From: Haliotis rufescens
Taxonomy: Eukaryota
NCBI RefSeq assembly: GCF_023055435.1
Contig: NW_025963891.1
Location: 9,920,001 to 9,984,000 of the forward strand
Reading direction: 5' to 3'
Length of the DNA: 64,000 nt
The position numbers and the translations under genes were made by a program. Shown piece by piece: positions 6,515 through 63,625 of the stretch; within the stretch, counting starts at the first letter, position 1; every line of letters begins with the position of its first letter. Under the pieces are notes generated by a model. It searched no databases, had not been told where the DNA came from, and was given only the letters and a program-made list of their open reading frames with translations.

Positions 6515-9282
6515 ATGAAGACTTTTTTCGCATTTGTAGTCGCTGTTGTAGCAAGCCAAGGTGAGTGTTTTAAATGACCATGCCTTCTTACTATCCACTT
6601 CTCAGTAGATACGATGGACGTGGCTAAGGCGCAGCAATATGATATTTACGGAAATCCAATTATATGCATTAATTTTTTTTCTGATGTGTTCGAATGTAAA
6701 CATATTTACATTAATTATTTTTTGACTAAAGTTGACGCGTTGACGTTTTATATTTACATGTTTTCAGCTATGGCCCTGTCGATACAGGATGGAAATGATG
6801 AGTGCGCTCATTGCATCGCTTTCATTACTGATCGCCAGGAGATGGAACTCGAATCGATTGTACGTAAATAATACTGACTGTATCCCATGATGGTTCGTAA
6901 AAATCGTCCTATTTCCAAACGTGCCCACTAACATATACGTACATGTTTAGAACATTATCTTTTTGATTATACACTAATGGTTTATACCCCTACCCTCAAT
7001 ATAATACTTAAAGTAATGGGACCAGTCAACCAAGTGTTCGTTTCGGAATCTACTTCTGAATTTTCCAATTTCCCAAAATAAATGGGATCTGTCCAGTCTT
7101 TGGTAGAATATTGTACTGAACCCTACTCTCATATATTTATCAGTATTCTATCTACTACACATAGATCTATTACTACATATATTTAAAGATAAGTTTACCC
7201 CAGAACGTAAGGAGGTAAACATGTCACAAATACACTCATGTCTCTTCTCCAGATCTATTGTACTGAGTTTTTATATAACATGTGTTTCAGGAAGAACAGG
7301 AAGCAAAAATGAACAACGTCTGTTCTTCAATGGAACCCAGCAAGGTGGAAGAGGTGAGATAAATAATAGTTCTCAATAGTAAACAAACGGATTTCATAAA
7401 CAACAAGATCAGATGTTTCATTGCAAAGAGCAATGTACTGAATATATCACAAGGTAGATAATTAAAAAGGTACAATAATCTATATTCATAGCAAACTGTG
7501 TTGATCCTTAACGCTGTGAATTAGATAAACTAATATTCTTGAGGCTAATATTATAAAAACGCGTATTTGCAGTGTAAGACAAAAGTGCAGAAAATATGCC
7601 AGAAGAAGAAGGACAAAGTCAACAGTCAGGTAACTGTTAATTTTTACATCATCAGAAATCCTGCTCCAATCAATGGACTTATCATGAAGCACAAGATTGC
7701 GTCAGCTTACACTTGCATATACTGACATCATGAAAAAGGTGATTGATGCAAAAAGTTCAGGAATGTACCAATCAGATGGAATTTAGATACCCGGGGAAAG
7801 AGATGGAAAACTCTATATCAGCATTTCAGCTTACGTTTCCTTTATCAGAATTATAACCTTTACCATGTTTTCACTGAGTTACACAAAATGCTCAGGATTG
7901 GACTATGATTTTACCCTTTAACTCTATAATTATTATTGTACACTGCAAGTAAGCAAAAGGATTTGGTTTTACAACATATCATGTAATTGTGTTCACCTTC
8001 ACAGAGCCCAGAAGCCATCTGTAAAGCCACCAAGTACTGCCCGTCGCTTGATACCGCCAACATGAACACACCTACAAACAAGGCAAGATTAATACCTAGT
8101 ACCAGTCCTCTAGTCAACAGGTTTAGTGAGTATAACTCATCAAACTTACACACAATCAAATGAATGTCTTAACGTGTTCATGATTTGTACAATTTACTGG
8201 GTTAGAAAGTAGGTTCTACTTTCGTCACACTTATTGTGCTGCAATATTAGTGTTACATTGGTTACAAACGAAAGTTTAAAAACTGTAGGCATAATGATGC
8301 ATTCAATTTGTCATTTCATGTTTCGTAGGTTCAAGGGAGAGGGCGATGCAAGGACTGCAAGAACTTTCTAAAAGACGTCAAAGAAAGGCAAATGGTCACT
8401 GTTGTGAGTGACAAATATTTAGAAGGTTTAATCACTCCTATGTTGGTCTGGCACATTTACATTATTTCCCAAACTACATAAAACATGTACCATCTTGTTT
8501 TAAGTAAAATAACTAATCGTACACGTTGATGTAATGCAATCATAACATCATGACAACGTGTAGTTAAAAACGTTTCTTTTACAGGCCTCTGTAAAGGAAC
8601 TGATCGAAACCATGTTCTGTGAAAAGCTCAGCGAAGACCGCCAGGAACAGGTGTGTATATAGTTATCCAATCATTGTTCAGTTTTCTGATTATGATATAA
8701 ATTCAGTAGTTCTTTCCTTATTGTAGTCCTAGACAATCCATGTGTTTGACACCATGAGTATCGGATACAATGACGTGCACCATTCAAGTCAGCTAGCCTG
8801 ACCATCTGATCCCGTAGGTCGCCCCTAATATTGTGTTACAGTTAATTTCATAATCAGTCATGATATATATTCTTATTTCATTATATAATGTGTGTATGTA
8901 TACAATTTCACGTTCATCTAATTATGTTTGAGCATTCTGTGTACTCTGTTTCAGTGTGCTGACTTTCTAGATGCAGCAATCGAAATGGAAATCGAGCTAC
9001 TAGATTTGGTGGTAAGTAAATGTTGGATGTATAAGTGAGATACTCATTGTTTTGATATTTACATAAACTTACACTTTACAGCCATATATGTCGATTTCTT
9101 AAGACATATCCATTAAGGACACTTATCAATATGTATGATCGGAATGAAGTATAAAACCTGGATAGTAAGAGTTAAAAGACTACTGTTTATTTAATTAAAA
9201 CTATGTAAAAGAATGGAACTTTTGTTTATTACAGAATGTTAAAACGTCATGCAAACTACTTGGTATGTGTGGTGCCAACTAG
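6515..9282 (+). CDS. Secreted two-domain saposin-like (SAPLIP) protein, copy 1 (9 coding exons, 193 aa)
   Basis: Exons 6515-6560, 6768-6859, 7291-7353, 7573-7629, 8005-8082, 8329-8403, 8585-8650, 8955-9011, 9235-9282 (TAG). All introns are GT-AG except intron 5 (GC-AG). Product: MKTFFAFVVAVVASQAMALSIQDGNDECAHCIAFITDRQEMELESIEEQEAKMNNVCSSMEPSKVEECKTKVQKICQKKKDKVNSQSPEAICKATKYCPSLDTANMNTPTNKVQGRGRCKDCKNFLKDVKERQMVTVASVKELIETMFCEKLSEDRQEQCADFLDAAIEMEIELLDLVNVKTSCKLLGMCGAN. It has a hydrophobic signal peptide and two C-x2-C...C-x10-C...C-x5-C saposin-B cysteine arrays. Confidence 0.9.
8725..8826 (-). mobile_element. SINE fragment in intron 7 (each unit)
   Basis: The reverse complement GGGCGACCTACGGGATCAGATGGTCAGGCTAGCTGACTTGA resembles ~45003-45110. 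Confidence 0.6.
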
Positions 9283-9319
9283 TTGTAAGGTGAGTTGTAT
9301 TGAACGTGATATAGGCGAG

Positions 9320-10050: not shown

Positions 10051-10150
10051 ATGCTCTGTCCACTTTACTGATGACTAGTCATGATATGAAATATTCTTAC
10101 ATTATTACACATGACACGGTTAACTTCAGTGTGTATTTTTGGTATTGCAG

Positions 10151-10240
10151 ATGCTGACAATGCTGCCTCTCGATCCTTCATCGCCCACGAACAACGTCAC
10201 GTGTAATTTATTGTCAATAAAACTTTGCATTTGACCAGAG
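10151..10240 (+). other. Non-coding terminal (3'-UTR) exon with polyadenylation signal, copy 1 (also at 20370, 30459, 48438, 57036)
   Basis: Strong donor AAG|GTGAGT at 9289/9290, 7 nt after the stop codon. Acceptor TTTTTGGTATTGCAG ends at 10150. AATAAA at 10216-10221. The exon end is approximate. Confidence 0.6.
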
Positions 10241-16776: not shown

Positions 16777-19530
16777 ATGAAGACTTTTTTCGCATTTGTA
16801 GTCGCTGTTGTAGCAAGTCAAGGTGAGTGTTTTAAATGGCCATGCCTTCTTACTATCCACTTCTCAGTAGATACGATGGTCGTGGCTAAGGCGCAGCAAT
16901 ATGATATTTACGGAAATCCAATTATATGCATTAATTCTTTTTCTGATGTGTTCGAATCTAAACATATTTACATTAATTATTTTTTGACTAAAGTTGACGC
17001 GTTGACGCTTTATATTTACATGTTTTCAGCTATGGCCCTGTCGATACAGGATGGAAATGATGAGTGCGCTGATTGCATCGCTTTCATTACTGATCGCCAG
17101 GAGATGGAACTCGAATCGATTGTACGTAAGTAATACCGACTATAACCCATGATGGTTCGTAAAAATCGTACCCACTAACATATACGTACATGTTTAGAAC
17201 ATTATCTTTTTGATTATACACTAATGGTTTATACCCCTAACCTCAACATAATACTTAAAGTAATGGGACCAGTCAACCAAGTGTTCGTTTCGGAATCTAC
17301 ATCTGAATTTTCCAATTTCCCAAAATAAATGGGATCTGTCCAGTCTTTGGTAGAATATTGTACTGAACCCTACTCTCATATATTTATCAGTATTCTATCT
17401 ACTACAAATGGATCTATTACTACATATATTTAAAGATAAGTTTACCCCAGAACGTAAGGAGGTAAACATGTCACAAATACACTCATGTCTCTTCTCCAGA
17501 TCTATTGTACTGAGTTTTTATATAACATGTGTTTCAGGAAGAACAGGAAGCAAAAATGAACAACGTCTGTTCTTCAATGGAACCCAGCAAGGTGGAAGAG
17601 GTGAGATAAATAATAGTTCTCAATAGTAAACAAACGCATTTCATAAACAACAAGATCAGATGTTTCATTGCAAAGAGCAATGTACTGAATATATCACAAG
17701 GTAGATAATTAAAAAGGTACAATAATCTATATTCATAGCAAACTGTGTTGATCCTTAACGCTGTGAATTAGATAAACTAATATTCTTGAAGCTAATATTA
17801 TAAAAACGCGTATTTGCAGTGTAAGACAAAAGTGCAGAAAATATGCCAGAAGAAGAAGGACAAAGTCAACAGTCAGGTAACTGTTAATTTTTACATCATC
17901 AGAAATCCTGCTCCAATCAATGGACTTATCATGAAGCACAAGATTGCGTCAGCTTACACTTGCATATACTGACATCATGAAAAAGGTGATTGATGCAAAA
18001 AGTTCAGGAATGTACCAATCAGATGGAATTTAGATACCCGGGGAAGGAGATGGAAAACTCTATATCAGCATTTCAGCTTACATTTCCTTTATCAGAATAA
18101 TAACCTTTACCATGATTTCACTGAGTTACACAAAATGCTGAGAATTGGACTATGATTTTACCCTTTAACTCTATAATTATTATTGTACACTGCGAGTAAG
18201 CAAAAGGATTTGGTTTTACAACATATCATGTAATTGTGTTCACCTTCATAGAGCCCTGAAGCCATCTGTAAAGCCACCAAGTACTGTTCGTCGCTTGATA
18301 CCGCCAACATGAACACACCTACAAACAAGGCAAGATTAATACCTAGTACCAGTCCTCTAGTCAACAGGTTTAGTGAGTATAACTCATCAAACTTACACAC
18401 AATCAAATGAATGTCTTAACGTGTTCATGATTTGTACAATTTACTGGGTTCGAAAGTAGGTTCGTCTTTCGTCACACTTATTGTGCTGCAATATTATTGT
18501 TACATTGGTTACAATCTAAAGTTTAAAAACTGTAGGCATAATGATGCATTCAATTTGTCATTTCATGTTTCGTAGGTTCAAGGGAGACGGCGATGCAAGG
18601 ACTGCAAGAACTTTCTAAAAGACGTCAAAGAAAGGCAAATGGTCACTGTTGTGAGTGACAAATATTGAGAAGGTTTAATCACTCCTATGTTGGTCTGGCA
18701 CATTTACATTATTTCCCAAACTACATAAAACATGTACCATCTTGTTTTAAGTAAAATAACTAATCGTACACGTTGATGTAATGCAATCATAACATCATGA
18801 CAACGTGTAGTTAAAAACGTTTCTTTTACAGGCCTCTGTAAAGGAACTGATCGAAACCATGTTCTGTGAAAAGCTCAGCGAAGACCGTCAGGAACAGGTG
18901 TGTATATAGTTATCCAATCATTGTTCAGTTTTCTGATTATGATATAAATTCAGTAGTTCTTTCCTTATTATAGTCCTAGACAATCTATGTGTTTGACACC
19001 ATGAATATCGGATACAATGACGTGCACCATTCAAGTCAGCTAGCCTGACCATCTGATCCCGTAGGTCGCCCCTAATATTGTGTTACAGGTAATTTCATAA
19101 TCAGTCATGATACATATTCTTATTTCATTATATAATGTGTGTATGTATACAATTTCACGTTCATCTTATTATGTTTGAGCATTCTGTGTACTCTGTTTCA
19201 GTGTGCTGACTTTCTAGATGCAGCAATCGAAATCGAAATCGAGCTACTAGATTTGGTGGTAAGTAAATGTTGGATGTATAAGTGAGATACTCATTGTTTT
19301 GATATTTACATAAACTTACACTTTACAGCTATATATGTCGATTTCTTAAGACATATCCATTAAGGACACTTATCAATATGTATGATCGGAATGAAGTATA
19401 AAACCTGGATAGTAAGAGTTAAAAGACTACTGTTTATTTAATTAAAAATATGTAAAAGAATGGAACTTTTTGTTTATTACAGAATGTTAAAACGTCATGC
19501 AAACTACTTGGTATGTGTGGTGCCAACTAG
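16777..19530 (+). CDS. Secreted two-domain saposin-like protein, copy 2
   Basis: Exons 16777-16822, 17030-17121, 17538-17600, 17820-17876, 18252-18329, 18576-18650, 18832-18897, 19202-19258, 19483-19530. Frame and splice sites intact. Differences from copy 1: H30D, P99S, G117R, M170I. Confidence 0.9.
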
Positions 19531-22500
19531 TTGTAAGGTGAGTTGTATTGAACGTGATATAGGCGAGGTAAGGTGAAGTGAGGCGGGATGAGTTTTAACA
19601 TCGCGTTCAAGATTATTGCACTCCATGTGGCGGCTTGTTCTCGTCCGGACTTTATAGTGCTTGCTCACTGAGATGCCATGTCGCAGTTTCACATAGAAAC
19701 CCCACTCTGACACATTATACTCAGACACCGAGCCGGCCATTGCTTGTTGATGGTTGATGTTGCGCTAAAGCACACACGGGTGCTTTTGAACATTGCTACT
19801 CTCCTTTTACAAATTGAAATTATGTACTGTTTCGTGTTGATTCCCAAATTGAAATAGTATGTTAATCCAGAAGTCTGAACGTAAAAGAACTTCGTGTGAA
19901 ACCAACAAACAACCAGCATGTTGTATACAATCAACAAATGAATTACAAAAATTAACTGGGTTTACAAATCAGGACAAATTACTCCACATTAATTACAATG
20001 GCGCCTCGGGCAATACACCATGGAGGTTTTCCTTCTGTCTACGCAATAGTTACACCGCTGTCTGAGGAACAAGTTTCGGTTGGAACTATTGACTGTTTGT
20101 TTCGTTTACTTCAACGCCACAATCAGCACTATTCCAGCTATATGAAGGCCTGTCTGAACCAGACACGCAATCAGCCAAATTACCGAGTCTGGCCACTCGA
20201 CCCATTAAGTCGCCTCTAACGACCAGCATAGGTTGATTGGGAGAAATACTTACTCTGGACCAATGGTCTTCTGCTCCCCGGACGGATGCTCTGTCCACTC
20301 TGATATGAAATATTCTTACATTATTACACATGACACGGTTAACTTCAGTGTGTATTTTTGGTATTGCAGATGCTGACAATGCTGCCTCTCGATCCTTCAT
20401 CGCACACGAACAACGTCACGTGTAAAACATTGTCAATAAAACTTTGCATTTGACCAGAGTACTGTTGTTGCTTGGACGGTTTATGTGAGATATGGAGATC
20501 ATTTGTTGAACCTGTGTCATATAATAGGCACGTGAAAATTATTTAGCAATCGAATCCTAGTGGAACGCCATTTATCACACCATACATAACATAGACTCTC
20601 GACAGTCAAGAACGCAAAGAAATTGGTCCAGGCTGGTCAACTGATGATCAAATGAAACTACTTTAACACGTTTTTCTATTATCGTTCTATTTTGAGGATA
20701 GAGGAAGGGAGTTGGGTTTGGTTTGTCCAAGGAACGGAACTCTGCACGGCGAATAGCGGCGCCTCAGACGACTGAACCAATCGCATCCTCATCCTTGAGG
20801 ATAGACCATTATGCGGTGAACTAAATACTCAGAATCAGACATTATACGATTAAATGAGGAGACACATGTATACAGGATCAAGACAAATGGACATAATAAG
20901 TTGTCACCAGTTAATTCCTGAAACAAATTGAAATAAAACGGTTATTGGCAAATGAACCCATTACGATTACTATTTTCAACAGATATCCTAAGAAGATAAA
21001 CAGAACGAAGCTATCGCGTGTACAGCAAAGAGTGAGTGAGTTTAGGTTAACGCCTCTTTGAACAGTACGTCAGTTTCATCAGCACTCGTGATGGGTGCTA
21101 TAATGCTATGTCACACATGGGTGCTCTTGAATATTAATACTCTCTTTTGATTAATTGAAATTATATTCACTGCTCCACGGCTCAGTCATATATATCCGCT
21201 TCACCCACGGGCACTTTACCGGGGAGCATGTAAATGTACAGTGACAAAGACAATAAGGAGACATGTAAGGTTCAACCATTTCATTGCATGGTACAAGTGA
21301 CGGGTAATCGTGACCTAGTGTCGCACGGGATATGATGTGGTAGTGCATGGTTGCCTAGCATTGGACAATAAGTGAAGGAAACATTACATTCCTTAGAACT
21401 ATTATCAGATGGATACCAGACCTATCCTTCATTTGAATGGTTAAAGCTTCACCAACGTTACAAACTTTTAACTCAGAACTTATCAACTTGAAATATTTGA
21501 ATAAACTTTAATTTTAAAGTCTCTGCAATGAGCATGACCTTTCACGGGGCACAAAGTGCTCTTGTCTCACAAGGTAAGAGATTCAGTCTAACTAGTGGTC
21601 TGGTGACTCTCTTGGAACATCTCCTTTCAGTCTCTTCACATTCCTGCTGTAGTACAGTAGGTCTGGTATTCATCTCGTCAGGCACTGATAATGATGTACT
21701 CGTAGTGTCTTGATGGTCATCTGGCTTCCACTGCTCAGTTGTCTTGTTGCTGGACATTACTGAATCTCACTTACAGTCACGGTATCTGCCGTCCTAGTAG
21801 TTTCCTCCCACATATGAGTGAGTGAGGAATGAGTATGGTTTTACGCCACTTCTATATTGCAACAATATCACGAAAGGGACACCGGAACATGGGCTTCATG
21901 CATTGTACTCAGGTGGGAATAAAACCCGGGTGTTTGCCGTGACGAACTAACACTTTTACAACTAGGCTACCTCATCGTCCCTGTGATGTGCATTACTACA
22001 GTATATTTGTTTTGTTTATATTTAATTCACTTACTTTATTTGAATGTTCATCTGGAATATAATTATATATTAATCATAAAATATCGTAAAATATCACTGA
22101 CATTAAATGTTTGGAGAATTGACATTACCTGAAGTTGATGTCATAATGCGTTATCACCCAAATAGATGTTATCCCACACCAGGGTGGTGAACACATTGCC
22201 GCGAAATCCATAGGGAACATCGGTTTCATGCTGTAATTTTGTTTTGTCGTCAAAGCCGTATCAAGAGTCACCGAGTAGGAAACGCCGTGTCCTAACGAGT
22301 TGAGTAGCTGCTGTAATTTGGTAGACCCTTTAATGTGTCTTTAGGGCCACACCTAAAGCAAAGTGTTTTCGCATCAGCTTTCCACCACAGAGAAAAGACG
22401 AATTATGTCTTGTGAAAGAGAAAGTATTTTTCTGGTTGTTATTTCCTTTTATTTCCACCAACTGCCGTTCTTTTAATACTTTTCTCAATTATCTCAGTAC

Positions 22501-26820: not shown

Positions 26821-29589
26821 ATGAAGACTTTTTTCGCATTTGTAGTCGCTGTTGTAGCAAGCCAAGGTGAGTGTTTTAAATGGCCATGCCTTCTAACTAT
26901 CCACTTCTCAGTAGATACGATGGTCGTGGCTAAGGCGCAGCAATATGATATTTACGGAAATCCAATTATGTGCATTAATTCTTTTTCTGATGTGTTCGAA
27001 TCTAAACATATTTACATTAATTATTTTTTGACTAAAGTTGACGCGTTGACGTTTTATATTTACATGTTTTCAGCTATGGCCCTGCCGATACAGGATGGAA
27101 ATGATGAGTGCGCTGATTGCACCACTTTCATTACTGATCGCCAGGAGATGGAACTCGAATCGATTGTACGTAAATAATACTGACTGTATCCCATGATGGT
27201 TCGTAAAAATCGTGCTATTTCCAAACGTGCCCACTAACATATACGTACATGTTTAGAACATTATCTTTTTGATTATACACTAATGGTTTATACCCCTACC
27301 CTCAATATAATACTTAAAGTAATGGGACCAGTCAACCAAGTGTTCGTTTCGGAATCTACTTCTGAATTTTCCAATTTCCCAAAATAAATGGGATCTGTCC
27401 AGTCTTTGGTAGAATATTGTACTGAACCCTACTCTCATATATTTATCAGTATTCTATCTACTACACATAGATCTATTACTACATATATTTAAAGATAAGT
27501 TTACCCCAGAACGTAAGGAGGTAAACATGTCACAAATACACTCATGTCTCTTCTCCAGATCTATTGTACTGAGTTTTTATATAACATGTGTTTCAGGAAG
27601 AACAGGAAGCAAAAATGAACAACGTCTGTTCTTCAATGGAACCCAGCAAGGTGGAAGAGGTGAGATAAATAATAGTTCTCAATAGTAAACAAACGCATTT
27701 CATAAACAACAAGATCAGATGTTTCATTGCAAAGAGCAATGTACTGAATATATCACAAGGTAGATAATTAAAAAGGTACAATAATCTATATTCATAGCAA
27801 ACTGTGTTGATCCTTAACGCTGTGAATTAGATAAACTAATATTCTTGAGGCTAATATTATAAAAACGCGTATTTGCAGTGTAAGACAAAAGTGCAGAAAA
27901 TATGCCAGAAGAAGAAGGACAAAGTCAACAGTCAGGTAACTGTTAATTTTTACATCATCAGAAATCCTGCTCCAATCAATGGACTTATCATGAAGCACAA
28001 GATTGCGTCAGCTTACACTTGCATATACTGACATCATGAAAAAGGTGACTGATGCAAAAAGTTCAGGAATGTACCAATCAGATGGAATTTAGATACCCGG
28101 GGAAGGAGATGGAAAACTCTATATCAGCATTTCAGCTTACATTTCCTTTATCAGAATAATAACCTTTACCATGTTTTCACTGAGTTACACAAAATGCTGA
28201 GGATTGGACTATGATTTTACCCTTTAACTCTATAATTATTATTGTACACTGCGAGTAAGCAAAAGGATTTTGTTTTACAACATATCATGTAATTGTGTTC
28301 ACCTTCACAGAGCCCAGAAGCCATCTGTAAAGCCACCAAGTACTGTCCGTCGCTTGATACCGCCAACATGAACACACCTACAAACAAGGCAAGATTAATA
28401 CCTAGTACCAGTCCTCTAGTCAACAGGTTTAGTGAGTATAACTCATCAAACTTACACACAATCAAATGAATGTCTTAACGTGTTCATGATTTGTACAATT
28501 TACTGGGTTCGAAAGTAGGTTCGTCTTTCGTCACACTTATTGTGCTGCAATATTATTGTTACATTGGTTACAATCGAAAGTTTAAAAACTGTAGGCATAA
28601 TGATGCATTCAATTTGTCATTTCATGTTTCGTAGGTTCAAGGGAGACGGCGATGCAAGGACTGCAAGAACTTTCTAAAAGACGTCAAAGAAAGGCAAATG
28701 GTCACTGTTGTGAGTGACAAATATTGAGAAGGTTTAATCACTCCTATGTTGGTCTGGCACATTTACATTATTTCCCAAACTACATAAAACATGTACCATC
28801 TTGTTTTAAGTAAAATAACTAATCGTACACGTTGATGTAATGCAATCATAAAATCATGACAACGTGTAGTTAAAAACGTTTCTTTTACAGGCCTCTGTAA
28901 AGGAACTGATCGAAACCATGTTCTGTGAAAAGCTCAGCGAAGACCGTCAGGAACAGGTGTGTATATAGTTATCCAATCATTGTTCAGTTTTCTGATTATG
29001 ATATAAATTCAGTAGTTCTTTCCTTATTGTAGTCCTAGACAATCCATGTGTTTGACACTATGAATATCGGATACAATGACGTGCACCATTCAAGTCAGCT
29101 AGCCTGACCATCTGATCCCGTAGGTCGCCCCTCATATTGTGTTACAGTTAATTTCATAATCAGTCATGATATATATTCTTATTTCATTATATAATGTGTG
29201 TATGTATACAATTTCACGTTCATCTAATTATGTTTGAGCATTCTGTGTACTCTGTTTCAGTGTGCTGACTTTCTAGATGCAGCAATCGAAATGGAAATCG
29301 AGCTACTAGATTTGGTGGTAAGTAAATGTTGGATGTATAAGTGAGATACTCATTGTTTTGATATATACATAAACTTACACTTTACAGCCATATATGTCGA
29401 TTTCTTAAGACATATCCATTAAGGACACTTATCAATATGTATGATCGGAATGAAGTATCAGACCTGGATAGTAAGAGTTAAAAGACTACTGTTTATTTAA
29501 TTAAAAATATGTAAAAGAATGGAACTTTTTGTTTATTACAGAATGTTAAAACGTCATGCAAACTACTTGGTATGTGTGGTGCCAACTAG
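26821..29589 (+). CDS. Secreted two-domain saposin-like protein, copy 3
   Basis: Exons 26821-26866, 27074-27165, 27597-27659, 27879-27935, 28311-28388, 28635-28709, 28891-28956, 29261-29317, 29542-29589. Intact. Differences from copy 1: S20P, H30D, I32T, A33T, G117R. Confidence 0.9.
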
Positions 29590-32500
29590 TTGTAAGGTGA
29601 GTTGTATTGAACGTGATATAGGCGAGGTAAGGTGAAGTGAGGCGGGATGAGTTTTAACATCGCGTTCAAGATTATTGCACTCCATGTGGCGGCTTGTTCT
29701 TGTCCGGACTTTATAGTGCTTGCTCACTGAGATGCCATGTCGCAGTTTCACATCGAAACCCCACTCTGACACATTATACTCAGACACCGAGCCGGCCAGT
29801 GCTTGTTGATGGTTGATGTTGCGCTAAAGCACACACGGGTGCTTTTGAACATTGCTACTCTCCTTTTACAAATTGAAATTATGTACTGTTTCGTGTTGAT
29901 TCCCAAATTGAAATAGTATGTTAATCCAGAAGTCTGAACGTAAAAGAACTTCGTGTGAAACCAACAAACAACCAGCATGTTGTATACAATCAACAAATGA
30001 ATTACAAAAATTAACTGGGTTTACAAATCAGGACAAATTACTCCACAGTAATTACAATGGCGCCTCGGGCAGACGCCCTGTCCAATACACCGCGGAGGTT
30101 TTCCTTCTGTCTACGCAATAGTTACACCGCTGTCTGAGGAACAAGTTTCGGTTGGAACTATTGACTGTTTGTTTCGTTTACTTCAACGCCACAATCAGCA
30201 CTATTCCAGCTATATGAAGGCCTGTCTGAACCAGACACGCAATCAGCCAAATTACCGAGTCTGACCACTCGACCCATTAAGTCGCCTCTAACGACCAGCA
30301 TAGGTGGATTGGGAGAAATACTTACTCTGGACCAATGGTCTTCTGCTCCCCGGACGGATGCTCTGTCCACTTTCCTGATGACTAGTCATGATATGAAATA
30401 TTCTAACATTTCTTACACATGACACGGTTAACTTCAGTGTGTATTTTTGATATTGCAGATGCTGACAATGCTGCCTCTCGATCCTTCATCGCCCACGAAC
30501 AACGTCACGTGTAAAACATTGTCAATAAAACTTTGCATTTGACCAGAGTACTGTTGTTGCTTGGACGGTTTATGTGAGATATGGAGATCATTTGTTGAAC
30601 CTGTGTCATATAATAGGCACGTGAACATTATTTAGCAATCGAATCCTAGTGGAACGCCATTTATCACACCATACATAACATAGACTCTCGACAGTCAAGA
30701 ACGCAAAGAAATTGGTCCAGGCTGGTCAACTGATGATCAAATGAAACTACTTTAACACGTTTTTCTATTATCGTTCTATTTTGAGGATAGAGGAAGGGAG
30801 TTGGGTTTGGTTTGTCCAAGGAACGGAACTCTGCACGGCGAATAGCGGCGCCTCAGACGACTGAACCACTCGCATCCTCATCCTTGAGGATAGACCATTA
30901 TGCGGTGAACTAAATACTCAGAACCAGACATTATACGATTAAATGAGGAAACACATGTATACAGGATCAAGACAAATGGACATAATAAGTTGTCACCAGT
31001 TAATTCCTGAAACAAATTGAAATAAAACGGTTATTGGCAAATGAACCCATTACGATTACTATTTTCCACACATTTCCTAAGAAGATAAACAGAACGAAGC
31101 TATCGCTTGTACAGCAAAGAGTGAGTGCGTTTAGGTTAACGCCTCTTTGAACAGTACGTCAGTTTCATCAGCACTCGTGACGGGTGCTATAATGCTATGT
31201 CACACATGGGTGCTCTTGAATATTGATACTCTCTTTTGATTAATTGAAATTATATTCACTGCTCCACGGCTCAGTCATATATATCCGCTTCACCCACGGG
31301 CACTTTACCGGGGAGCATGTAAATGTACAGTGACAAAGACAATAAGGAGACATGTAAGGTTCAACCATTTCATTGCATGGTACAAGTGACGGGTAATCGT
31401 GACCTAGTGTCGCACGGGATATGATGTGGTAGTGCATGGTTGCCTAGCATTGGACAATAAGTGAAGGAAACATTACATTCCTTAGAACTATTATCAGATG
31501 GATACCAGACCTATCCTTCATTTGAATGGTTAAAGCTTCACCAACGTTACAAACTTTTAACTCAGAACTAATCAACTTGAAATATTTGAATAAACTTTAA
31601 TTTTAAAGTCTCTGCAATGAGCATGACCTTTCACGGGGCACAAAGTGCTCTTGTCTCACAAGGTAAGAGATTCAGTCTAACTAGTGGTCTGGTGACACTC
31701 TTGGAACATCTCCTTTCAGTCTCTTCACATTCCTGCTGTAGTACAGTTGGTCTGGTATTCATCTTGTCAAGCACTGATAATGATGTACTCGTAGTGTCTT
31801 GATGGTCATCTGGCTTGCACTGCTCAGTTGTCTTGTTGCTGGACATTACCGAATCTCACTTACAGTCACGGTCTCTGCCGACCTAGTAGTTCCTCCCACA
31901 TATGAGTGAGTAAGGAATGAGTATGGTTTTACGCCACTTCTATATTTCAACAATATCACGGCAGGGACACCGGAACATGGGCTTCATGCATTGTACTCAG
32001 GTGGGAATAAAACCCGGGTGTTTGCCGTGACGAACTAACACTTTTACAACTAGGCTACCTCATCGTCCCTGTGATGTGCAGTACTACAGTATATTTGTTT
32101 TGTTTATATTTAATTCACTTACTTTATTTGAATGTTCATCTGGAATATAATTATATATTAATCATAAAATATCGTAAAATATCACTGACATTAATTGTTT
32201 GGAGTATTGACATTACCTGAAGTTGATGTCATAATGCGTTATCACCCAAATAGATGTTATTCCACATCAGGGTGGTGAACACATTGCCGCGAAATCCATA
32301 GGGAACATCGGTTTCATGCTGTAATTTTGTTTTGTCGTCAAAGCCGTATCAAGAGTCACCGAGTAGGAAACGCCGTGTCCTAACGAGTTGAGTAGCTGCT
32401 GTAATTTGGTAGACCCTTTAATGTGTCTTTAGGGCCACACCTAAAGCAAAGTGTTTTCGCATCAGCTTTCCACCACAGAGAAAAGACGAATTATGTCTTG

Positions 32501-37287: not shown

Positions 37288-40200
37288 ATGAAGACTTTTT
37301 TCGCATTTGTAGTCGCTGTTGTAGCAAGCCAAGGTGAGTGTTTTAAATGGCCATGCCTTCTAACTATCCACTTCTCAGTAGATACGATGGTCGTGGCTAA
37401 GGCGCAGCAATATGATATTTACGGAAATCCAATTATGTGCATTAATTCTTTTTCTGATGTGTTCGAATCTAAACATATTTACATTAATTATTTTTTGACT
37501 AAAGTTGACGCGTTGACGTTTTATATTTACATGTTTTCAGCTATGGCCCTGCCGATACAGGATGGAAATGATGAGTGCGCTGATTGCATCACTTTCATTA
37601 CTGATCGCCAGGAGATGGAACTCGAATCGATTGTACGTAAATAATACTGACTGTATCCCATGATGGTTCGTAAAAATCGTGCTATTTCCAAACGTGCCCA
37701 CTAACATATACGTACATGTTTAGAACATTATCTTTTTGATTATACACTAATGGTTTATACCCCTACCCTCAATATAATACTTAAAGTAATGGGACCAGTC
37801 AACCAAGTGTTCGTTTCGGAATCTACTTCTGAATTTTCCAATTTCCCAAAATAAATGGGATCTGTCCAGTCTTTGGTAGAATATTGTACTGAACCCTACT
37901 CTCATATATTTATCAGTATTCTATCTACTACACATAGATCTATTACTACATATATTTAAAGATAAGTTTACCCCAGAACGTAAGGAGGTAAACATGTCAC
38001 AAATACACTCATGTCTCTTCTCCAGATCTATTGTACTGAGTTTTTATATAACATGTGTTTCAGGAAGAACAGGAAGCAAAAATGAACAACGTCTGTTCTT
38101 CAATGGAACCCAGCAAGGTGGAAGAGGTGAGATAAATAATAGTTCTCAATAGTAAACAAACGCATTTCATAAACAACAAGATCAGATGTTTCATTGCAAA
38201 GAGCAATGTACTGAATATATCACAAGGTAGATAATTAAAAAGGTACAATAATCTATATTCATAGCAAACTGTGTTGATCCTTAACGCTGTGAATTAGATA
38301 AACTAATATTCTTGAAGCTAATATTATAAAAACGCGTATTTGCAGTGTAAGACAAAAGTGCAGAAAATATGCCAGAAGAAGAAGGACAAAGTCAACAGTC
38401 AGGTAACTGTTAATTTTTACATCATCAGAAATCCTGCTCCAATCAATGGACTTATCATGAAGCACAAGATTGCGTCAGCTTACATTTGCATATACTGACA
38501 TCATGAAAAAGGTGATTGATGCAAAAAGTTCAGGAAAGTACCAATCAGATGGAATTTAGATACCCGGGGAAGGAGATGGAAAACTCTATATCAGCATTTC
38601 AGCTTACATTTCCTTTATCAGAATAATAACCTTTACCATGATTTCACTGAGTTACACAAAATGCTGAGAATTGGACTATGATTTTACCCTTTAACTCTAT
38701 AATTATTATTGTACACTGCGAGTAAGCAAAAGGATTTTGTTTTACAACATATCATGTAATTGTGTTCACCTTCATAGAGCCCTGAAGCCATCTGTAAAGC
38801 CACCAAGTACTGCCCGTCGCTTGATACCGCCAACATGAACACACCTACAAACAAGGCAAGATTAATACCTAGTACCAGTCCTCTAGTCAACAGGTTTAGT
38901 GAGTATAACTCATCAAACTTACACACAATCAAATGAATGTCTTAACGTGTTCATGATTTGTACAATTTACTGGGTTCGAAAGTAGGTTCGTCTTTCGTCA
39001 CACTTATTGTGCTGCAATATTATTGTTACATTGGTTACAATCGAAAGTTTAAAAACTGTAGGCATAATGATGCATTCAATTTGTCATTTCATGTTTCGTA
39101 GGTTCAAGGGAGAAGGCGATGCAAGGACTGCAAGAACTTTCTAAAAGACGTCAAAGAAAGGCAAATGGTCACTGTTGTGAGTAACAAATATTGAGAAGGT
39201 TTAATCACTCCTATGTTGGTCTGGCACATTTACATTATTTCCCAAACTACATAAAACATGTACCATCTTGTTTTAAGTAAAATAACTAATCGTACACGTT
39301 GATGTAATGCAATCATAAAATCATGACAACGTGTAGTTAAAAACGTTTCTTTTACAGGCCTCTGTGAAGGAACTGATCGAAACCATGTTCTGTGAAAAGC
39401 TCAGCGAAGACCGTCAGGAACAGGTGTGTATATAGTTATCCAATCATTGTTCAGTTTTCTGATTATGATATAAATTCAGTAGTTCTTTCCTTATTGTAGT
39501 CCTAGACAATCCATGTGTTTGACACCATGAGTATCGGATACAATGACGTGCACCATTCAAGTCAGCAAGCCTGACCATCTGATCCCGTAGGTCGCCCCTC
39601 ATATTGTGTTACAGTTAATTTCATAATCAGTCATGATATATATTCTTATATCATTATATAATGTGTGTATGTATACAATTTCACGTTCATCTAATTATGT
39701 TTGAGCATTCTGTGTACTCTGTTTCAGTGTGCTGACTTTCTAGATGCAGCAATCGAAATGGAAATCGAGCTACTAGATTTGGTGGTAAGTAAATGTTGGA
39801 TGTATAAGTGAGATACTCATTGTTTTGATATATACATAAACTTACACTTTACAGCCATATATGTCGATTTCTTAAGACATATCCATTAAGGACACTTATC
39901 AATATGTATGATCGGAATGAAGTATAAAACCTGGATAGTAAGAGTTAAAAGACTACTGAACACGTCCCATTTTAATTCTGGAAACCCAAAAGTCCAGAAA
40001 CTCTACGCTCTTTGCCCAGTCTCGGTTAAAGGTATTTACAAAATTAAACATGCCGTTTTCATGGGAACATACCAAGGAAGAAAAAATGAAAAAAAAAATG
40101 TTCAAAAACTCAATATTTAGACTATGTCGCCCATGGGCCTGCCCATGGGCGAAGTGTGGCCCATGGGCCTGCCCATGGGCGAAGTCTGGCCCATGGGTAG

Positions 40201-43200
40201 GCCCATGGGCAGGCCCATGGGCGAGAATATGTTCCTTTACTTAAAACTCATGTTTTTGTTTCGCAAATACATTTAATGTATTCATTCAAGTATCATGACA
40301 CAAAATTTAATTCATTTTAACTTAATTCAACGATTTTATAACGATATTGAAATATTTCGCCCATGGGCGAGAAAAAGGTTTGGCCCATGGGCGAGAATAT
40401 GTTCCTTTACTTAAAACTCATGTTTTTGTTTCACAAATACTTTTAATGTATTCATTCAAGTATCATGACACAAAATTTAACTCATTTTAACTTAATTCAA
40501 CGATTTTATAGCGATATTGAAATATTTCGCCCATGGGCGAGAAAAAGGTTTGGCCCATGGGCGAGTATATGTTCCTGTACTTAAAACTCATGATTTTGTT
40601 TCGCAAATACATTAAATGTATTCATTGAAGTATCATGACACAAAATTAAACTCATTTTAACTTAATTCAACGATTTTATAGCGATATTGAAATATTTCGC
40701 CCATGGGCGAGAAAAAGGTTTGGCCCATGGGTAGGCCCATGGGCAGGCCCATGGGCGAGAATATGTTCCTTTACTTAAAACTCATGTTTTTGTTTCGCAA
40801 ATACATTTAATGTATTCATTCAAGTATCATGACACAAAATTTAACTCTTTTTAACTTAATTCAACGATTTTATAGCGATATTGAAATATTTCGCCCATGG
40901 GCGAGAAAAAGGTTTGGCCCATGGGCGAGTATATGTTCCTTTACTCAAAACTCATGTTTTTGTTTCGCAAATACATTAAATGTATTTATTCTAGTATCAT
41001 GACACAAAATTTAACTAATTTTTACTTAATTCAACTATTTTACGGCGTTATTAAAATATTTCGCCCATGTTTTCGTCAGTCCCTTTCAAGCATCAACTAA
41101 CTGTTTGCAAAGTATATTGTATCATGTGAAATATACTTTATATTATATCATTACATTACTATTTAAAAAGGGCATTTGGTTGGATGTTTCCTTTAGTTCT
41201 ACAAATTTCACCTGTTTTACATATTGTAGCGATCTTTAATGAACCCGGCCTTACCTCTCAAAACGTTTTGACAGTTTATCATACGAATTCATGTGCGTGT
41301 ACTCTAATTCATTGGAGTTATTTTCCACAACATTAAATTTTAGTTACTTTCTATTTCATTTCCCATTTAATGTCCCGTTGATACATCACACTGGGCAATT
41401 ACGTGACACCAGGTATGCAATATACAGGTACGCGTGCGCGTATTTTAATGAAAAAAAACTATTCGTCTTTTATTGCATAACGTTTGGCTGAATATCTTAC
41501 ATTCTAATGAAATCTCGAAATATTTTTTTAATTACATGCGGTTTCGAACTGACCAGTGGGAATTATGTTCCAATGCGATTGAGGAAAACGTGAGTGAATA
41601 TTGTGACACTAAAGCAACTTTTAACTGCATTGTCACTTTTGGTATGAAAATGGTAACAGTTCAGAAAAAACAACAGCCTTCTTATGATAATTCTCATTAG
41701 TACGTTGTATCTAATTACAGTGTCGGCCTTATTTACAGGTGATTCTACAATACCTGCTCTCGGTCAATTACGATCTACCACACCACGCGTGAATAAACAG
41801 TTATGCAGGTGTTGCTGTGGGCAAATACCTAGCCTGAAAATGTTTATTTTTTTTAGGATACATGTTTTACAAATGTTCGTTGATATGTGGATATATTAAG
41901 CACAAAGACAAAAAAATGTTTATGAAAGATGAATTAGTGCCTTGATATATTCATCGAGATGTGTATCATCGTGTAATGGGGTCATTCAATAAACGTATGT
42001 TTGGAGGAGATATCAAAGGAGCCGCCCAATATACACAGTGTCGTCCGGTGAACTACCACCCCACCCTGTCCATTAGAGTTATTTAATCGGTACACAAATA
42101 TATTTGATGCGGTGTCAGTGCGGAAGGAGTTTGAATTACGTCCGCCAGTTGTCACAGAAATCCTCAAAGTATAGAAACAATAAACAAGGTCAATCCGTAC
42201 TAATTACCTAGTGACGCACGTAACAACGACTGTCAATAGGGAAAATGGTGAAAACAAATTGAAATAGATTTTAATAAAACATTATTGTACTACATAACTC
42301 GCAAAAGCGGTGCCTAAAATTGTTTGACCGTGTTATGTGTGTTGTAAACTGACGAATAGCAAGTAATTGTCATGCTGTACGCATGGTTCCATATACAAAT
42401 TCAGTTATACAACCGGTATGAAACTGAGAACTGAGATACCAAGTACAACCTGCATTTACACACGGAAGCAATATACTTGTGTGTATGCCCTCTCCTCTAA
42501 AAAATGTATCACTAAAGTATTTGCATTGTAATAAATATAGTAATGATAAAACTTGGTAATTTGGTAGGTCTCCGACAGATATGATTTTCAGTTTTTTTAC
42601 ACCTTTGATTGATACGGATTACGTACCTGTTGTCTAGTCACTGTCTCTAATGTATCTGCTTGTTAGAAATTTCAAATGTCTTGTTATAGCACTGTTCCTA
42701 AAATACGGCAGTTTCTTTTATCGGGTATAAATAGTTGATTCGTCTTGTCACGCAGTCATTTTTTACTTGATCGAATGATTTCCACAAAAAATTACGGCAG
42801 AGAGTTTTGTATTTTATTATATTTTTAGAAGATTTTAGAAGATGCTTACATCACTGTATCTCAGAACGTAAAACTGATAACATTCAAACATGTAATTAGT
42901 ACACAGTTAATTGTTACATATAATTTCCTGCATATTCCTTTTTGAACAAAAAGCCTACATGTATACTGATATCGGTGTCCACTGTTAAAAGGGTATTAGT
43001 GCAGTCAGCCATGGTAAATGGAGAGACAATAATAAGGTGATTAATTATAGTCTGTTGCAGAATATGCGGTATAAGTGTAGTCATTGATACATATACACAT
43101 TACACATATACAGATGAAATACACGATATGATGCAGTGCAAGAACAAATTAAGATACGGTTTCTATTAAAAATAATTATACGATTTCGGATTTAATTGGC

Positions 43201-46200
43201 ATGTTTAAATTTTCAGGCCAACACGGCTGAGATACAGCATCGGCATACTCAACTGGAGTTGTTTTCTGCCGGTCGTATGTTCATTGTTTGACTGAGCACA
43301 CTCGTGTCGGGGTTTCGATATTTTCTTCTCTTTGTTGGCAGCCTGCCACCGGTCTGAATTTTGAGAAAGGTCTCAGCATGGGACTGTTAATTACTTCTTA
43401 ATGATGTCTACAAGCTTACAAACTTGTAGATGTTGGGTGCGGTTAGGACCAAACTTTTTCAGCTCAGAGTGTTAGTGGTCCTGGAACCCATAGTGTCAAA
43501 CAGGTTCTGCACAAAACGTCCATCAGATTCTACTGTTCAGCAACATTGTCACTGAATTTCAGAACTCTGGCATGATATAATAATCAAGGATTTCGAAGGT
43601 GAACGAGGGGAAAGGCAGACGCACGTGGATTTACCCTCAGGTTATTATTGTCTGGAGTTCACATTTTGGGGCATTTCATATACTAATTGAACAGAGTTCA
43701 CCTGCACATGTCCACTTTAGTGATACAGACTGTAACCAAAAATGCAATGAGCCGTAGCTCTTAATCCCTTATAACAACGGTAACAACAACCAGGGTGAGG
43801 ACACAGTAAGGTTAAACCGTGTCCAACAAACAATCTGAGGTGGCTATCTCCCATCAAGTCAGCTCTGTTTTTAAGCGCATAGTTATGTTTTTACATATTG
43901 AAATAAAAGGAATTTAAAAAATTATATTTAACAAACCTACACATAACCAAATACAAAACTTTATAACCCTCTCTAGACTTAGTTCCAATTAACCTGGATC
44001 ATTCAACTCGCTCACGAAGGTCGTATGCGACTTTAAAGTGAATACGTCTACAGTGTACAAGTAACTTTTAACTGTATCATATATACTCATGATGAGCAAT
44101 TATTTTCGTTCCTAATTCGAATGAGCACATTCTGAGGCTAAATCTGCAAAAGGACAGATAAAATATTTCTTTGTACAATGCAAACGATACAAACGTAGCG
44201 GCTGATAATAGAGACAATGATTTAATAATCTGCAATATATCAAGTGTTCTCGTTCAATCTATTGTACATATTGAAGTGATTGTAAAGTTTCAAGGAGTAC
44301 TAAAATGTTGTGGTATTATGAATGTATTTAGAATATGAATAGCGAAAAACAGTCACCATATCGGATGTACATGTATAACTTGTCTTCCAACACCACGCTT
44401 GTGCCGAGGCCCATGGTCATAAAATTAATCGGTCCCATAAAAGGAGCAAATAGTTTCGCAGATACTTCTTGCTATGGTTCACTCACAATTGTCAGACGAC
44501 CTAATCATCAGTCAGACCAGTCAAGTGTGACCAGCGTACCTGCCTGGTTTTGGCTCCTAATTACTGAACTGCCCAATACTTTCATACTGTGGGCAAAGTA
44601 AGCGGCCTCGTTGAGTGATACAGACTAACCAGATTATGATTGTGTTTGTAAGTTGCGTTTAATCTGTGTCGGATTGCAGTTGTTTTATTAGTCAAGACTA
44701 GGGGTAGTTTTTTCAATGAAACCTTTTAGCCGTTGAGTTTGTTTTGCATTCATTTCATTAAATACATTGTTAGGTAGAATAATAACACGTTATATGGATA
44801 AAACATCTCCCTAATCTGATTATAATCTCACATGTACTCTAAGTACCGTACTATATTACTTTGCGGAGACACTGAGTATAATTTTTTAGTTGGCATTGTA
44901 TGCTGTCTGAATGACTTTACAAATCCCTGCATTCAATAGACCCGTGAAGATCTTCAACAAACCATTCTTGGCGTAAAAGGGCGACAGCGCTTGTCGTAAG
45001 AAGCGACTACCGGGATCGGGTGGTCAGGCTCGCTGACTTGGTTGATGCATGTCATCGTATCCCAATTGGTGGATCGATGCACATGATGTCAATCACTGGA
45101 TTGTCTGGTCCAGACTCGATTATTTACAGACCGCCGTCATACAGCTGAAATATTGCTAAGTGTGGCGTTATACAACTAACAAACAAACAAAACACAATAA
45201 GAGAAAGTGTATGAGTACTAAAACTTGCAATAGATATGCGTACCCTACGTACACACATGAGTCCCATTCGACAGTCTACAACACACGAATAACTGTCAAA
45301 CAAGTTTGGGTACCCCTTATGTTCAGGCAAGTTATTTAGTTCGATAATTTTGTATTAAAATCCTTTTCAATTTGTTTTCATCCTTTTCCCCTATTCCATG
45401 CATGTTTATGTTGCTACATCTTATTGCTCATGTTTCCAAGTATTGTAAAACACTTTAATGTTTCTCCTTCTTAATCTAACGTTGTAACATTTCCGGTCAT
45501 TGCCATCATCTAATACACAAGAGATGATACCAAGACATATTTTATTCGGTTTTATGGTCTATGCGGTCTTACAATTGATTTTATTAGTCTTTAAATCTTA
45601 TGTCTAGTAAATATTTTCACAAACAGGGCTGTTAACTGATATAAGGAATGTAACATCCAGTTGAGGACTGAATACGACGTACGTTAGACTGGTAACGACA
45701 TTTCTACAATTAATATTTTGAATAAGCCGTTAATACGCCAGTTGTGACAGGGATGATGGTATGGTAGATGTAGCAGACATATTGACAGCCGTTGTTACGC
45801 GAGTCACTAGGTTATTAGTACGGCATTGGCCTTGTTGATTGGTACTATACTTTCTGTGGCCACTGGCGGACGTAATTCAAACTCCTTCCACACTGACATC
45901 GCACCAAATATATTTGTGTACCGATCACATAACTCTTACTGACAGGGTAGGGTGGTAGTTCACGCGAAACGGACGACACTGTGTATATTGAGCGGCTCCT
46001 TTGATATCGCCTCACAACATACTTTTAATGAATGACCAATTAAACGATGATACACATCAGGATCGCGGAGAAAATACAAGCTTCGTTCGCGTTGAATATA
46101 TATATCAAGGCACAAATTCATCTTTCATAAACTTTTTGTGTCTTGGTGCTTAATATATCCACATATCAACGAAAATATGTAATACATGTATCCACAAAAA

Positions 46201-62470: not shown

Positions 62471-62639
62471 TGTAGTCGGAGATTTCTTATGTATATGGCA
62501 AAGGTTTCTGCCGCTTTTATTTTATTTTCATGGTATATGTCTACTTAAGTATCTGTTTTATGGACGAACTATGAAAGGTTGTAAATAACTCTCATGACAG
62601 AACATTCTCTATTCTTCCATTATGACAACATTTACTTAC

Positions 62640-63625
62640 AGTTTCTCTGAGAGTGTATGAGGATAGATGAGAACATATTTCTTCCTTTAGGAAGTGTTCT
62701 ACCATTTCCTGAAATGCAAAGAACAAGGTTTCCAGTAATTGCCATTATACAGAGGCTTTCGCAAATTATTGATTTCACGCGATAATGCCCCAAAATAAAC
62801 ATTGAAATATGTGTAAGTTGTGTTTTACGCCGCTTTTAGCAATATTCCACCGATATCACGACAGGAAACACCAGAAATGGGCTTCACACATAGTACCCAG
62901 GTTGGGATTCGGACTTGGCCTCAGCCGTGACGGCGAACGCTTTGACGCGTTTGTACAATATTTCATTGAAAGTCAGCTTAAAGTGATAGACATGTCTAAA
63001 GTCACCTTCTCCTTCGAAGACTTTTGTGAGCCATTCTCCCGTTTTTCGAGGCAATGCGGTTATATACATATGAAAGTCGTTATATCTAATGCCAATAAAT
63101 AGAACAGATCATGTATTTGACAAGCAGGAAGTAGGCACTGGTCAATCAATTTCTAATTTATTCAAGTAGCATGACTCACCACGCCTTCATCTGTATCCAA
63201 TCTGGCAATTACCGCGGTGAGGGTTTCCTTACAGTTCGTACACGCATCGTCATCCTTTGAAATGATGCAGAAGAAAAAACGAATGTTTTTCGCTTATAAG
63301 CAGTTCAATTTTTACTGAACCCTCACATTGAAAATAGATATAACGATTACAACACACACGCACGTTTATAAGTTTCGCATATATGGTTGTCAAGTGAGTA
63401 GAGAGTATACCTCTGTTGATTATGTTACTAGCTGTCTTATATTCCAGTTATTAGGCAGCGATATAGCTGAAACAAATATTGATTTTCTAAGTCAAATGTG
63501 TATGAGTTGGTAAAATATCCCGTGCACAAATATACAAAGGTTGACATATAATCAACTCCTAACGCAACCAACTTACCTGACCCAACGGAGACACATAGGG
63601 CAATAATAAGAATCGAAGTATTCAT
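62640..63625 (-). CDS. Divergent secreted saposin-like paralog, 5' part only (4 exons, 77 aa; 3' exons not found)
   Basis: Minus-strand exons 63625-63577, 63466-63429, 63254-63180, 62708-62640, all with GT-AG boundaries. Product: MNTSILIIALCVSVGSAISLPNNWNIRQLDDDACTNCKETLTAVIARLDTDEGVEMVEHFLKEEICSHLSSYTLRET. It shows a signal peptide, CxxC and the third saposin Cys, with the same phase-0 intron positions as the array gene. Confidence 0.8.
62810..62946 (-). mobile_element. tRNA-derived SINE fragment in intron 3 of the minus-strand paralog
   Basis: GTTTTACGCCGCTTTTAGCAATATTCCA...ACACCAGAAATGGGCTTCACACA...CGTGACGGCGAACGCTTT matches 5918-6081. Confidence 0.75.

What the first reader, a model, noticed from the sequence alone, without database searches (positions are those of the whole stretch)
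6768..9011. Mirror-image charge design of the two saposin domains
Seen: paralogous exons carry opposite charge. Exon 4 (CKTKVQKICQKKKDKVNSQ; 7 K, 1 D) and exon 8 (CADFLDAAIEMEIELLDLV; 6 D/E, no K/R) are both exactly 19 aa and start on Cys4. Exon 2 is acidic, while its counterpart exon 6 is basic (8 K/R vs 3 D/E in copies 2-5). The chain therefore runs acidic-basic-basic-acidic. The third helix of domain 1 also has lysines where saposins usually have hydrophobic core residues. Inference: the domains may pair electrostatically as a self-inhibited pro-form. Alternatively, the central cationic halves could fold as a swaposin-like or domain-swapped unit.
Basis: partly seen in the sequence, partly recalled or inferred. 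Interest (0 to 1): 0.7.

Follow-up and report, generated by a model that had tools for sequence, protein, structure and literature searches.

The report
Abalone saposin with a charged-core domain
This abalone gene, repeated in tandem, encodes a likely secreted protein with two saposin-type (lipid-handling) domains; the first has charged residues where its relatives have a greasy core and is predicted to be a stiff hairpin that likely no longer binds lipid, so the apparent 'mirror-image' charge is mostly one odd domain beside a fairly ordinary acidic one.

Summary
The gene is real: 193 codons, nine coding exons, spliced contigs in four runs of one study, 12 copies in one cluster, close relatives found only in Haliotis. 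The exon 4 (+6) versus exon 8 (-6) contrast is right and exceeds chance (p 0.001-0.006; largest of 168 background pairs is 7). But it is no mirror: exons 3 and 7 are both acidic, aligned charged positions are 8 same-sign against 2 opposite, and part of exon 6's charge lies in the linker. Equal exon length and the Cys4 start are an inherited module shared with ordinary saposin genes next door. The real oddity is domain 1: 6-7 of 20 core positions are charged (background maximum 4 of 206), and AlphaFold fuses its helices 1 and 2 into one straight helix in two species while control domains keep the hinge. Its acid run lies opposite its own lysine run. Domain-domain capping stays possible (invariant K79/E171); a swaposin is unlikely.

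The parts
6515..6560 (+). Exon 1, copy 1: start codon and signal-peptide-like stretch
   Evidence: joint to exon 2; signal peptide inferred from the hydrophobic N-terminus
6768..6859 (+). Exon 2: domain 1 Cys1/Cys2 and helix 1; acidic; R38 and E42 at core positions
7291..7353 (+). Exon 3: domain 1 helix 2 and Cys3; net -4
7573..7629 (+). Exon 4: domain 1 helix 3 from Cys4; net +6; core lysines K71, K79, K80, K82; extra Cys76
8005..8082 (+). Exon 5: domain 1 Cys5/Cys6 and linker; ends at a GC donor (GC-AG intron 8083-8328)
   Evidence: joint 8080>8327 with 3 ambiguous letters in all four runs; GC donor in 12 of 12 copies
8329..8403 (+). Exon 6: end of linker with basic motif, domain 2 Cys1/Cys2 and helix 1
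8585..8650 (+). Exon 7: domain 2 helix 2 and Cys3; net -3
8955..9011 (+). Exon 8: domain 2 helix 3 from Cys4; net -6; E171 at a core position
9235..9289 (+). Exon 9: domain 2 Cys5/Cys6 and stop
10151..10230 (+). Exon 10: 3' untranslated exon (end approximate)
   Evidence: joint 9287>10149
16777..20449 (+). Copy 2 of the gene (its exons read as P0016, the protein folded)
26821..30538 (+). Copy 3 of the gene
37288..48517 (+). Copy 4 of the gene, with an insertion of about 7.5 kb in intron 8
53400..57115 (+). Copy 5 of the gene
62634..63625 (-). First exons of a neighbouring ordinary (hydrophobic-core, acidic) saposin-like gene; further copies lie beyond the window
   Evidence: a copy in L007 is spliced in runs X1 and X3

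Best explanation
The gene encodes a likely secreted, abalone-restricted two-domain saposin-like protein whose domains have likely split their jobs: domain 1 is predicted to be a hinge-less, disulfide-stapled helical hairpin whose acid and lysine runs likely cancel each other inside the domain, and domain 2 is the likely lipid-binding unit. Shown: gene structure, splicing, copy number, six-Cys spacing in both domains, loss of hydrophobic core residues in domain 1 and their retention in domain 2, conservation over four species. Predicted: one straight helix 24-58 packed antiparallel to helix 62-85, in a register (C57-C68, C31-C92) that sets E40-E50 against K74-K82. Inferred: domain 1 cannot close into the usual saposin bundle or cradle acyl chains, and acts as a soluble, protease-resistant partner that keeps the greasy, acidic domain 2 in solution during secretion; domain 2 (pI 4.6) would engage lipid or membranes best at low pH, as other acidic saposins do. 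The exon-level 'mirror' is then the sum of this internal zipper, the ordinary surface acidity of domain 2 and the arginines of the linker.
For: Core positions: domain 1 has 6-7 charged of 20 in six complete orthologues, background mean 0.75, maximum 4 in 206 domains; hydrophobic fraction 0.21, below the minimum 0.216 of 155 background domains, while domain 2 has 0.35, the background mean. Structure: continuous helix 24-58, pLDDT 85-92 over residues 41-90; in the control model of P0022 two ordinary domains keep the break (H37-54/H57-74, H135-152/H155-172) and the domain 1 orthologue is continuous (H333-366, pLDDT 90-97 over 341-400) although aligned almost only to ordinary saposins. The ordinary control domain fits open saposins at 2.0-2.1 A (Z 9.9-10.4), domain 1 only at 4.1-4.7 A (Z 8.2-8.8). 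Crude electrostatics: domain 1's own two halves score -3.6 kT, lowest of 206 background domains -2.0. Constraint: 28 of 59 residues invariant in 12 sequences of four species, among them R38, E40, E44, E50, K69, K79, D81; pN/pS 0.32 in domain 1 among five diverged copies. Domain 2 groups with the second domain of P0031 (98/99), a two-domain protein whose first domain is ordinary, so a basic helix 1 in domain 2 exists without a basic domain 1.
Against: No function was tested; tissue is unknown. AlphaFold with 23-27 sequences can over-extend helices, and domain 2, which keeps its core, is also drawn with fused helices at lower confidence (pLDDT about 70). The internal zipper is weaker in H. asinina and H. 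rubra (-1.0 and -1.4 kT; near 0 at seawater screening), and E42 is A or T there. Domain 2's acids are not cancelled inside domain 2 (+0.2 to +2.5 kT), which leaves them free to meet domain 1's lysines. Invariant F34 and M41 lie off the hairpin's core stripe and suggest a binding surface. Domain 2 itself has 3-4 charged core positions, so it is not fully ordinary. pTM 0.40 leaves the arrangement of the two domains open.
Confidence: 0.5

Rival explanations
1. Self-inhibited pro-form: the two hairpins pack into a pseudo-symmetric four-helix bundle in which domain 1 covers the greasy face of domain 2, with a buried K79-E171 pair for specificity; cleavage at the basic site before Cys119 frees domain 2. 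Compatible in part with the best explanation.
For: K79 and E171 are equivalent core positions, opposite in sign and each invariant; helix 3 is +6 against -6; domain 2's acids are uncompensated internally; H. asinina has five opposite-sign equivalent pairs along helix 3; KRR or RRR precedes domain 2 in H. asinina, H. rubra and window copies 2-5; the linker changes fastest (pN/pS 1.6).
Against: Both whole domains are net acidic (-1 and -5; pI 5.2 and 4.6), so they do not attract as wholes; same-sign pairs outnumber opposite ones (8:2 and 10:7); five opposite of eight doubly charged helix-3 positions in H. asinina is chance level (hypergeometric p 0.5, my hand count); the paired basic site is RGR or KGR in copy 1 and other copies.
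Confidence: 0.28
2. Domain 1 is an active binder of anionic surfaces or polymers (bacterial envelopes, algal sulfated polysaccharides, anionic head groups) through its lysine run, and targets domain 2 to them.
For: Helix 3 carries +6, above all 155 background domains; exon 4 is identical in 10 of 12 genomic copies.
Against: The lysines sit on the inner and flanking faces opposite an acid run, and domain 1 is net neutral to acidic; the helix is only +2 to +5 in other species.
Confidence: 0.11
3. Swaposin or half-swapped fold: residues 68-159 form a circularly permuted cationic unit and the outer halves form a second, acidic unit.
For: Residues 68-159 are net +9 in copy 2 (pI 9.3); pairing exon 7 with exon 4 is electrostatically favourable in the crude model, and total scores do not separate the normal from the swapped pairing in six of eight proteins.
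Against: Saposins align end to end with residues 24-101 of the model; domain 1 folds as one confident unit in P0022, where no domain 2 follows; the outer halves would be acid against acid (+3.1 kT in copy 2); net charge of 68-159 falls to +5 or +6 in diverged copies.
Confidence: 0.06
4. Domain 1 is a decaying spacer; its charged core reflects relaxed selection.
For: No Pfam saposin match for any of five family proteins; some gene models lack parts of a domain (P0007, P0022).
Against: 28 of 59 positions invariant over four species; pN/pS 0.32, lower than domain 2's 0.59; all six cysteines kept.
Confidence: 0.05

Closest known systems
Saposin-like proteins (SAPLIP; saposin B-type domain, Pfam SapB_1 PF05184 / SapB_2 PF03489), e.g. 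human saposins A-D
   Same: Six-Cys spacing, all-helical model, best structural matches are open saposins A, C and D; family profile meets saposin B at E 0.001; NCBI names several copies 'prosaposin-like'.
   Different: Domain 1 lacks the hydrophobic core and is predicted to lack the helix 1-2 hinge; no Pfam saposin hit; only two domains, no SapA domain; a seventh Cys in domain 1 of most copies.
Surfactant protein B proprotein (three saposin-like domains; anionic SP-BN active at acid pH; PMC8538444, passages read)
   Same: One precursor with saposin domains of unlike charge and likely unlike jobs; the lowest-rmsd saposin match of domain 1 is the SP-B C-terminal domain (6vz0_B Z 6.5, rmsd 2.9; 6vze_E Z 7.2, rmsd 3.5).
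   Different: Those Z values are in the range common for helical hairpins; sequence identity 14%; whether that SP-B domain shares the fused helix could not be read (paper not held).
Plant-specific insert (swaposin) of plant aspartic proteases
   Same: Any tandem of two saposin domains contains a C-half/linker/N-half segment of this order.
   Different: Here both outer halves are present and the model folds collinear domains.
Neighbouring ordinary Haliotis saposin-like genes (P0022 N-terminal domains) and the unnamed two-domain protein P0031
   Same: Same four-exon, phase-0 module and locus, spliced in the same runs; P0031's second domain is the closest outside relative of domain 2 (48.5 bits, next 34.2).
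   Different: They keep hydrophobic cores and Pfam SapB_2 matches; the tree does not join the neighbour's domains to either domain of this family.

Membership tests
Saposin-like proteins (SAPLIP) | Six cysteines in the saposin spacing | tested here: met
   Both domains match; spacings 29/11/24/6 and 30/11/24/6
Saposin-like proteins (SAPLIP) | Sequence or profile kinship to saposin B-type domains | tested here: met
   29 non-family multi-saposin proteins at E <= 0.001 besides four Haliotis hits; saposin B at E 0.001; Atlas first hit SapB_2 cluster 0.90; but no Pfam saposin hit
Saposin-like proteins (SAPLIP) | Amphipathic helices with a hydrophobic core or lipid-facing inner surface | tested here: not met
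   Not met for domain 1 (6-7 charged of 20 core positions, hydrophobic fraction 0.21); largely met for domain 2 (13 hydrophobic of 20, fraction 0.35)
Saposin-like proteins (SAPLIP) | Four or five helices in two leaves with a hinge between helices 1 and 2 (PMC5424708, PMC12678512; passages read) | tested here: inconclusive
   Predicted only: helices 1 and 2 fused in domain 1 of two species while control domains keep the break
Saposin-like proteins (SAPLIP) | Disulfides C1-C6, C2-C5, C3-C4 | not testable with these tools
   No coordinates returned; the register is consistent with it; needs mass spectrometry
Saposin-like proteins (SAPLIP) | Binding to lipid or membranes | not testable with these tools
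   No assay
Swaposin (plant-specific-insert type) | The unit is encoded as C-half then N-half, without its own outer halves | tested here: not met
   The gene holds two complete collinear six-Cys domains
Swaposin (plant-specific-insert type) | Residues 68-159 fold as one permuted domain | tested here: inconclusive
   The full-length model folds collinear units; the fragment alone was not folded; electrostatics do not exclude it
Cationic lytic SAPLIPs (NK-lysin/granulysin type; features recalled) | Net positive domain with surface basic residues and intact core | tested here: not met
   Both domains net acidic; domain 1's lysines occupy core positions

The most novel reading that the evidence does not exclude
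A saposin pair that has turned into a single-chain, four-helix safety catch: two hinge-less disulfide-stapled hairpins, in which a polar-core domain 1 clamps the lipid-binding face of domain 2 through a buried K79-E171 ion pair until the basic linker site is cut, a built-in inhibitor evolved from a saposin domain and amplified to a dozen copies in abalone.
Probability: 0.25. Interest if true: 0.7.

Novelty: new variant of a known kind. Interest (0 to 1): 0.42.

Why it matters
Saposin-like domains work by opening a hinged, greasy interior to lipid. A conserved, expressed, tandemly amplified member that has filled that interior with charges and is predicted to have lost the hinge shows the scaffold can be reused for a non-lipid job, and gives a small natural test case for what controls the open-closed switch. 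If domain 1 caps domain 2 it would be an inbuilt inhibitor made from the same fold. The expansion in a farmed mollusc hints at a digestive or defence role that my eight literature searches did not find described.

Tried and rejected
Complex prediction of residues 22-102 with 112-193: no answer, score 0.00, alignment not used, partner fold uncertain; not used as evidence either way. My own idea that the charges are negative design against half-swapping: the crude model favours the normal pairing only in window copies 2 and 4 (+4.1 kT) and not in six other proteins (-1.5 to +0.8); dropped. Idea that domains 1 and 2 are a recent duplicate with inverted charges: each domain's profile does not rank the other domain among its 18 best outside hits and the tree leaves them unjoined. 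A long exon 5 read to a GT donor: rejected, the spliced contigs give the GC donor. No RNA holder is listed on record as RNA; other runs of the same species label held next to none of the words, and X14 and X15 did not cover the neighbour's exons: no evidence on tissue. Wide fold search gave only generic hairpins besides saposin A (best Z 8.3); no plant swaposin was listed, which excludes nothing. Pfam: no saposin family for five family proteins; seven other open frames in the repeat unit gave nothing above cut-off. Literature: searches found no description of this family; a 'SapB1' gene is listed among gonad differences in another abalone (PMC11989308, passages read) but cannot be tied to this gene and its supplements were not opened. 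The SP-B domain structure paper and a SAPLIP review were not held. Earlier scan notes: none nearby, two unrelated by words. The 68-159 fragment was not folded alone (both folding jobs went to the full protein and the control).

Full report
Gene and setting. The window holds a tandem repeat of about 10 kb. Each unit carries a gene of nine coding exons and one 3' untranslated exon; copy 1 spans 6515-10230 and reads as 193 codons with a hydrophobic N-terminus. Contigs of four runs of one study (RNA by guess) skip exactly the predicted introns, including a GC-AG intron after exon 5. Five copies lie in the window and 12 matches in one 110 kb cluster of G000 contig C113; at least one upstream copy has a frameshift in exon 7. 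Stored proteins that read the same as the exons of window copies 2-5 are filed under Haliotis rufescens. Three homology searches found close relatives only in H. rufescens, H. cracherodii, H. rubra and H. asinina; all other hits were multi-saposin proteins at 22-32% identity.

The observation. Exon 4 (net +6) and exon 8 (net -6) are both 57 nt and start on Cys4. The contrast of 12 is beyond chance: p 0.0013 by shuffling, 0.006 allowing any of four exon pairs, and the largest contrast among 168 adjacent background domain pairs is 7. The background was the saposin domains of the 30 non-query hits P0022-P0051, leaving out the family domain at the end of P0022 (209 domains, 155 after removing near-duplicates; 206 distinct). 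The rest of the mirror does not hold. By exon the chain of copy 2 runs -7, -4, +6, +1, +5, -3, -6, +2, so exons 3 and 7 are both acidic and exons 6+7 sum to +2. Exon 6 is 8 vs 3 in copies 2-4, 8 vs 4 in copy 5, 7 vs 3 in copy 1, and two or three of its basic residues lie before Cys1; the helix itself is +2 here and 0 in H. asinina. At Cys-anchored equivalent positions there are 8 same-sign and 2 opposite pairs, and six basic residues of domain 1 stand where domain 2 is hydrophobic. Against my reading, the H. asinina orthologue has 7 opposite to 10 same, five of them along helix 3. Equal exon length and the Cys4 start are an inherited module: an ordinary saposin-like gene next door on the minus strand has phase-0, 60-nt exons starting on Cys4 and is spliced in runs X1 and X3 as well.

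What is really unusual. Domain 1 has R38, E42, K71, K79, K80 and K82 at positions that are hydrophobic in 74-95% of background domains. Over 20 core positions it has 6-7 charged residues in six complete orthologues, against a background mean of 0.75 and a maximum of 4 in 206 (P0007 lacks exon 5 and was not counted). Its hydrophobic fraction, 0.21, is below every one of 155 background domains; domain 2's, 0.35, is average, though it has 3-4 charged core positions, notably E171. This is selected rather than decayed: 28 of 59 residues are invariant in 12 sequences from four species, and pN/pS is 0.32 in domain 1, 0.59 in domain 2 and 1.6 in the linker among five of the 12 genomic copies, chosen as complete and diverged (pairs not independent).

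Structure. AlphaFold on copy 2's protein (27 rows) gives one helix 24-58 where saposins have two, then helices 62-85 and 88-94, with pLDDT 85-92 over residues 41-90; domain 2 is drawn alike at about 70; pTM is 0.40. As a control I folded P0022, which holds two ordinary domains and a domain 1 orthologue in one chain: the ordinary domains keep the helix 1-2 break and the orthologue does not (pLDDT 90-97), although its alignment rows were nearly all ordinary saposins.

Where the charges point. With C57-C68 and C31-C92 as anchors, E40-E50 lie across from K74-K82. An idealised screened-charge model gives domain 1's own halves -3.6 kT, lower than all 206 background domains (minimum -2.0), weaker in H. 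asinina and H. rubra (-1.0, -1.4); domain 2's own halves repel slightly. The same model does not consistently separate the normal from the half-swapped pairing, so it cannot exclude a swap, but in a swap the outer halves would be acid against acid. Both whole domains are net acidic (pI 5.2 and 4.6). Domain 2's nearest outside relative is the second domain of P0031, whose first domain is ordinary: a basic helix 1 in domain 2 can exist without a basic domain 1, which argues against one co-designed mirror.

Mechanism. Most likely (0.5) the domains divide labour: domain 2 is an acidic, lipid-binding saposin-like unit, probably favoured by low pH as reported for the anionic SP-BN domain (PMC8538444; passages read), and domain 1 is a rigid polar partner with an internal charge zipper. 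Function, secretion and pH dependence are inferred. An anion-binding role for the lysine run (0.11), a swaposin (0.06) and decay (0.05) follow.

Verdict. Observation partly confirmed, interpretation partly supported. A new variant of a known kind: a saposin-derived domain with a charged interior and a predicted lost hinge, in an abalone-restricted, amplified gene. Eight literature searches found no account of it; subscription papers and supplements were not covered. Interest 0.42.

Noticed in passing
window 8083-8328 and the same intron in all copies: Intron 5 is a GC-AG intron in 12 of 12 copies; a read-through to the next GT would shift the frame.
   Followed up: yes
window 7597-7599 (Cys76, exon 4): A seventh cysteine in domain 1, present in all 12 genomic copies but Ser in P0005 (H. 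asinina) and P0006 (H. rubra); could be free or link chains.
   Followed up: partly
window about 39959-47467: An insertion of about 7.5 kb with long inverted arms in intron 8 of copy 4, like a non-autonomous DNA transposon; no open frame of 120 aa or more inside.
   Followed up: partly
window 62634-63625 (-) and L007, L008: A second, convergent tandem array of ordinary acidic saposin-like genes with the same exon module, spliced in the same runs; the H. asinina model P0022 fuses such a gene to a domain 1 of this family, possibly an annotation join.
   Followed up: partly
G000 C113:9865546-9891147 (L001-L004): Older, about 90% identical copies in both orientations; one has a 65-nt exon 7 (frameshift) and no exons 1-3 found, one has no exons 8-9 found, one has no exon 1 found.
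   Followed up: no
P0031 (unnamed ENA protein, 228 aa): Two-domain saposin-like protein whose second domain is the closest non-abalone-named relative of domain 2 and has the same Cys spacing as domain 1 (29/11/24/6); organism not on record.
   Followed up: partly
window 6809: Copy 1 has His at position 30 where the laid contigs of all four runs and the other window copies have Asp.
   Followed up: no
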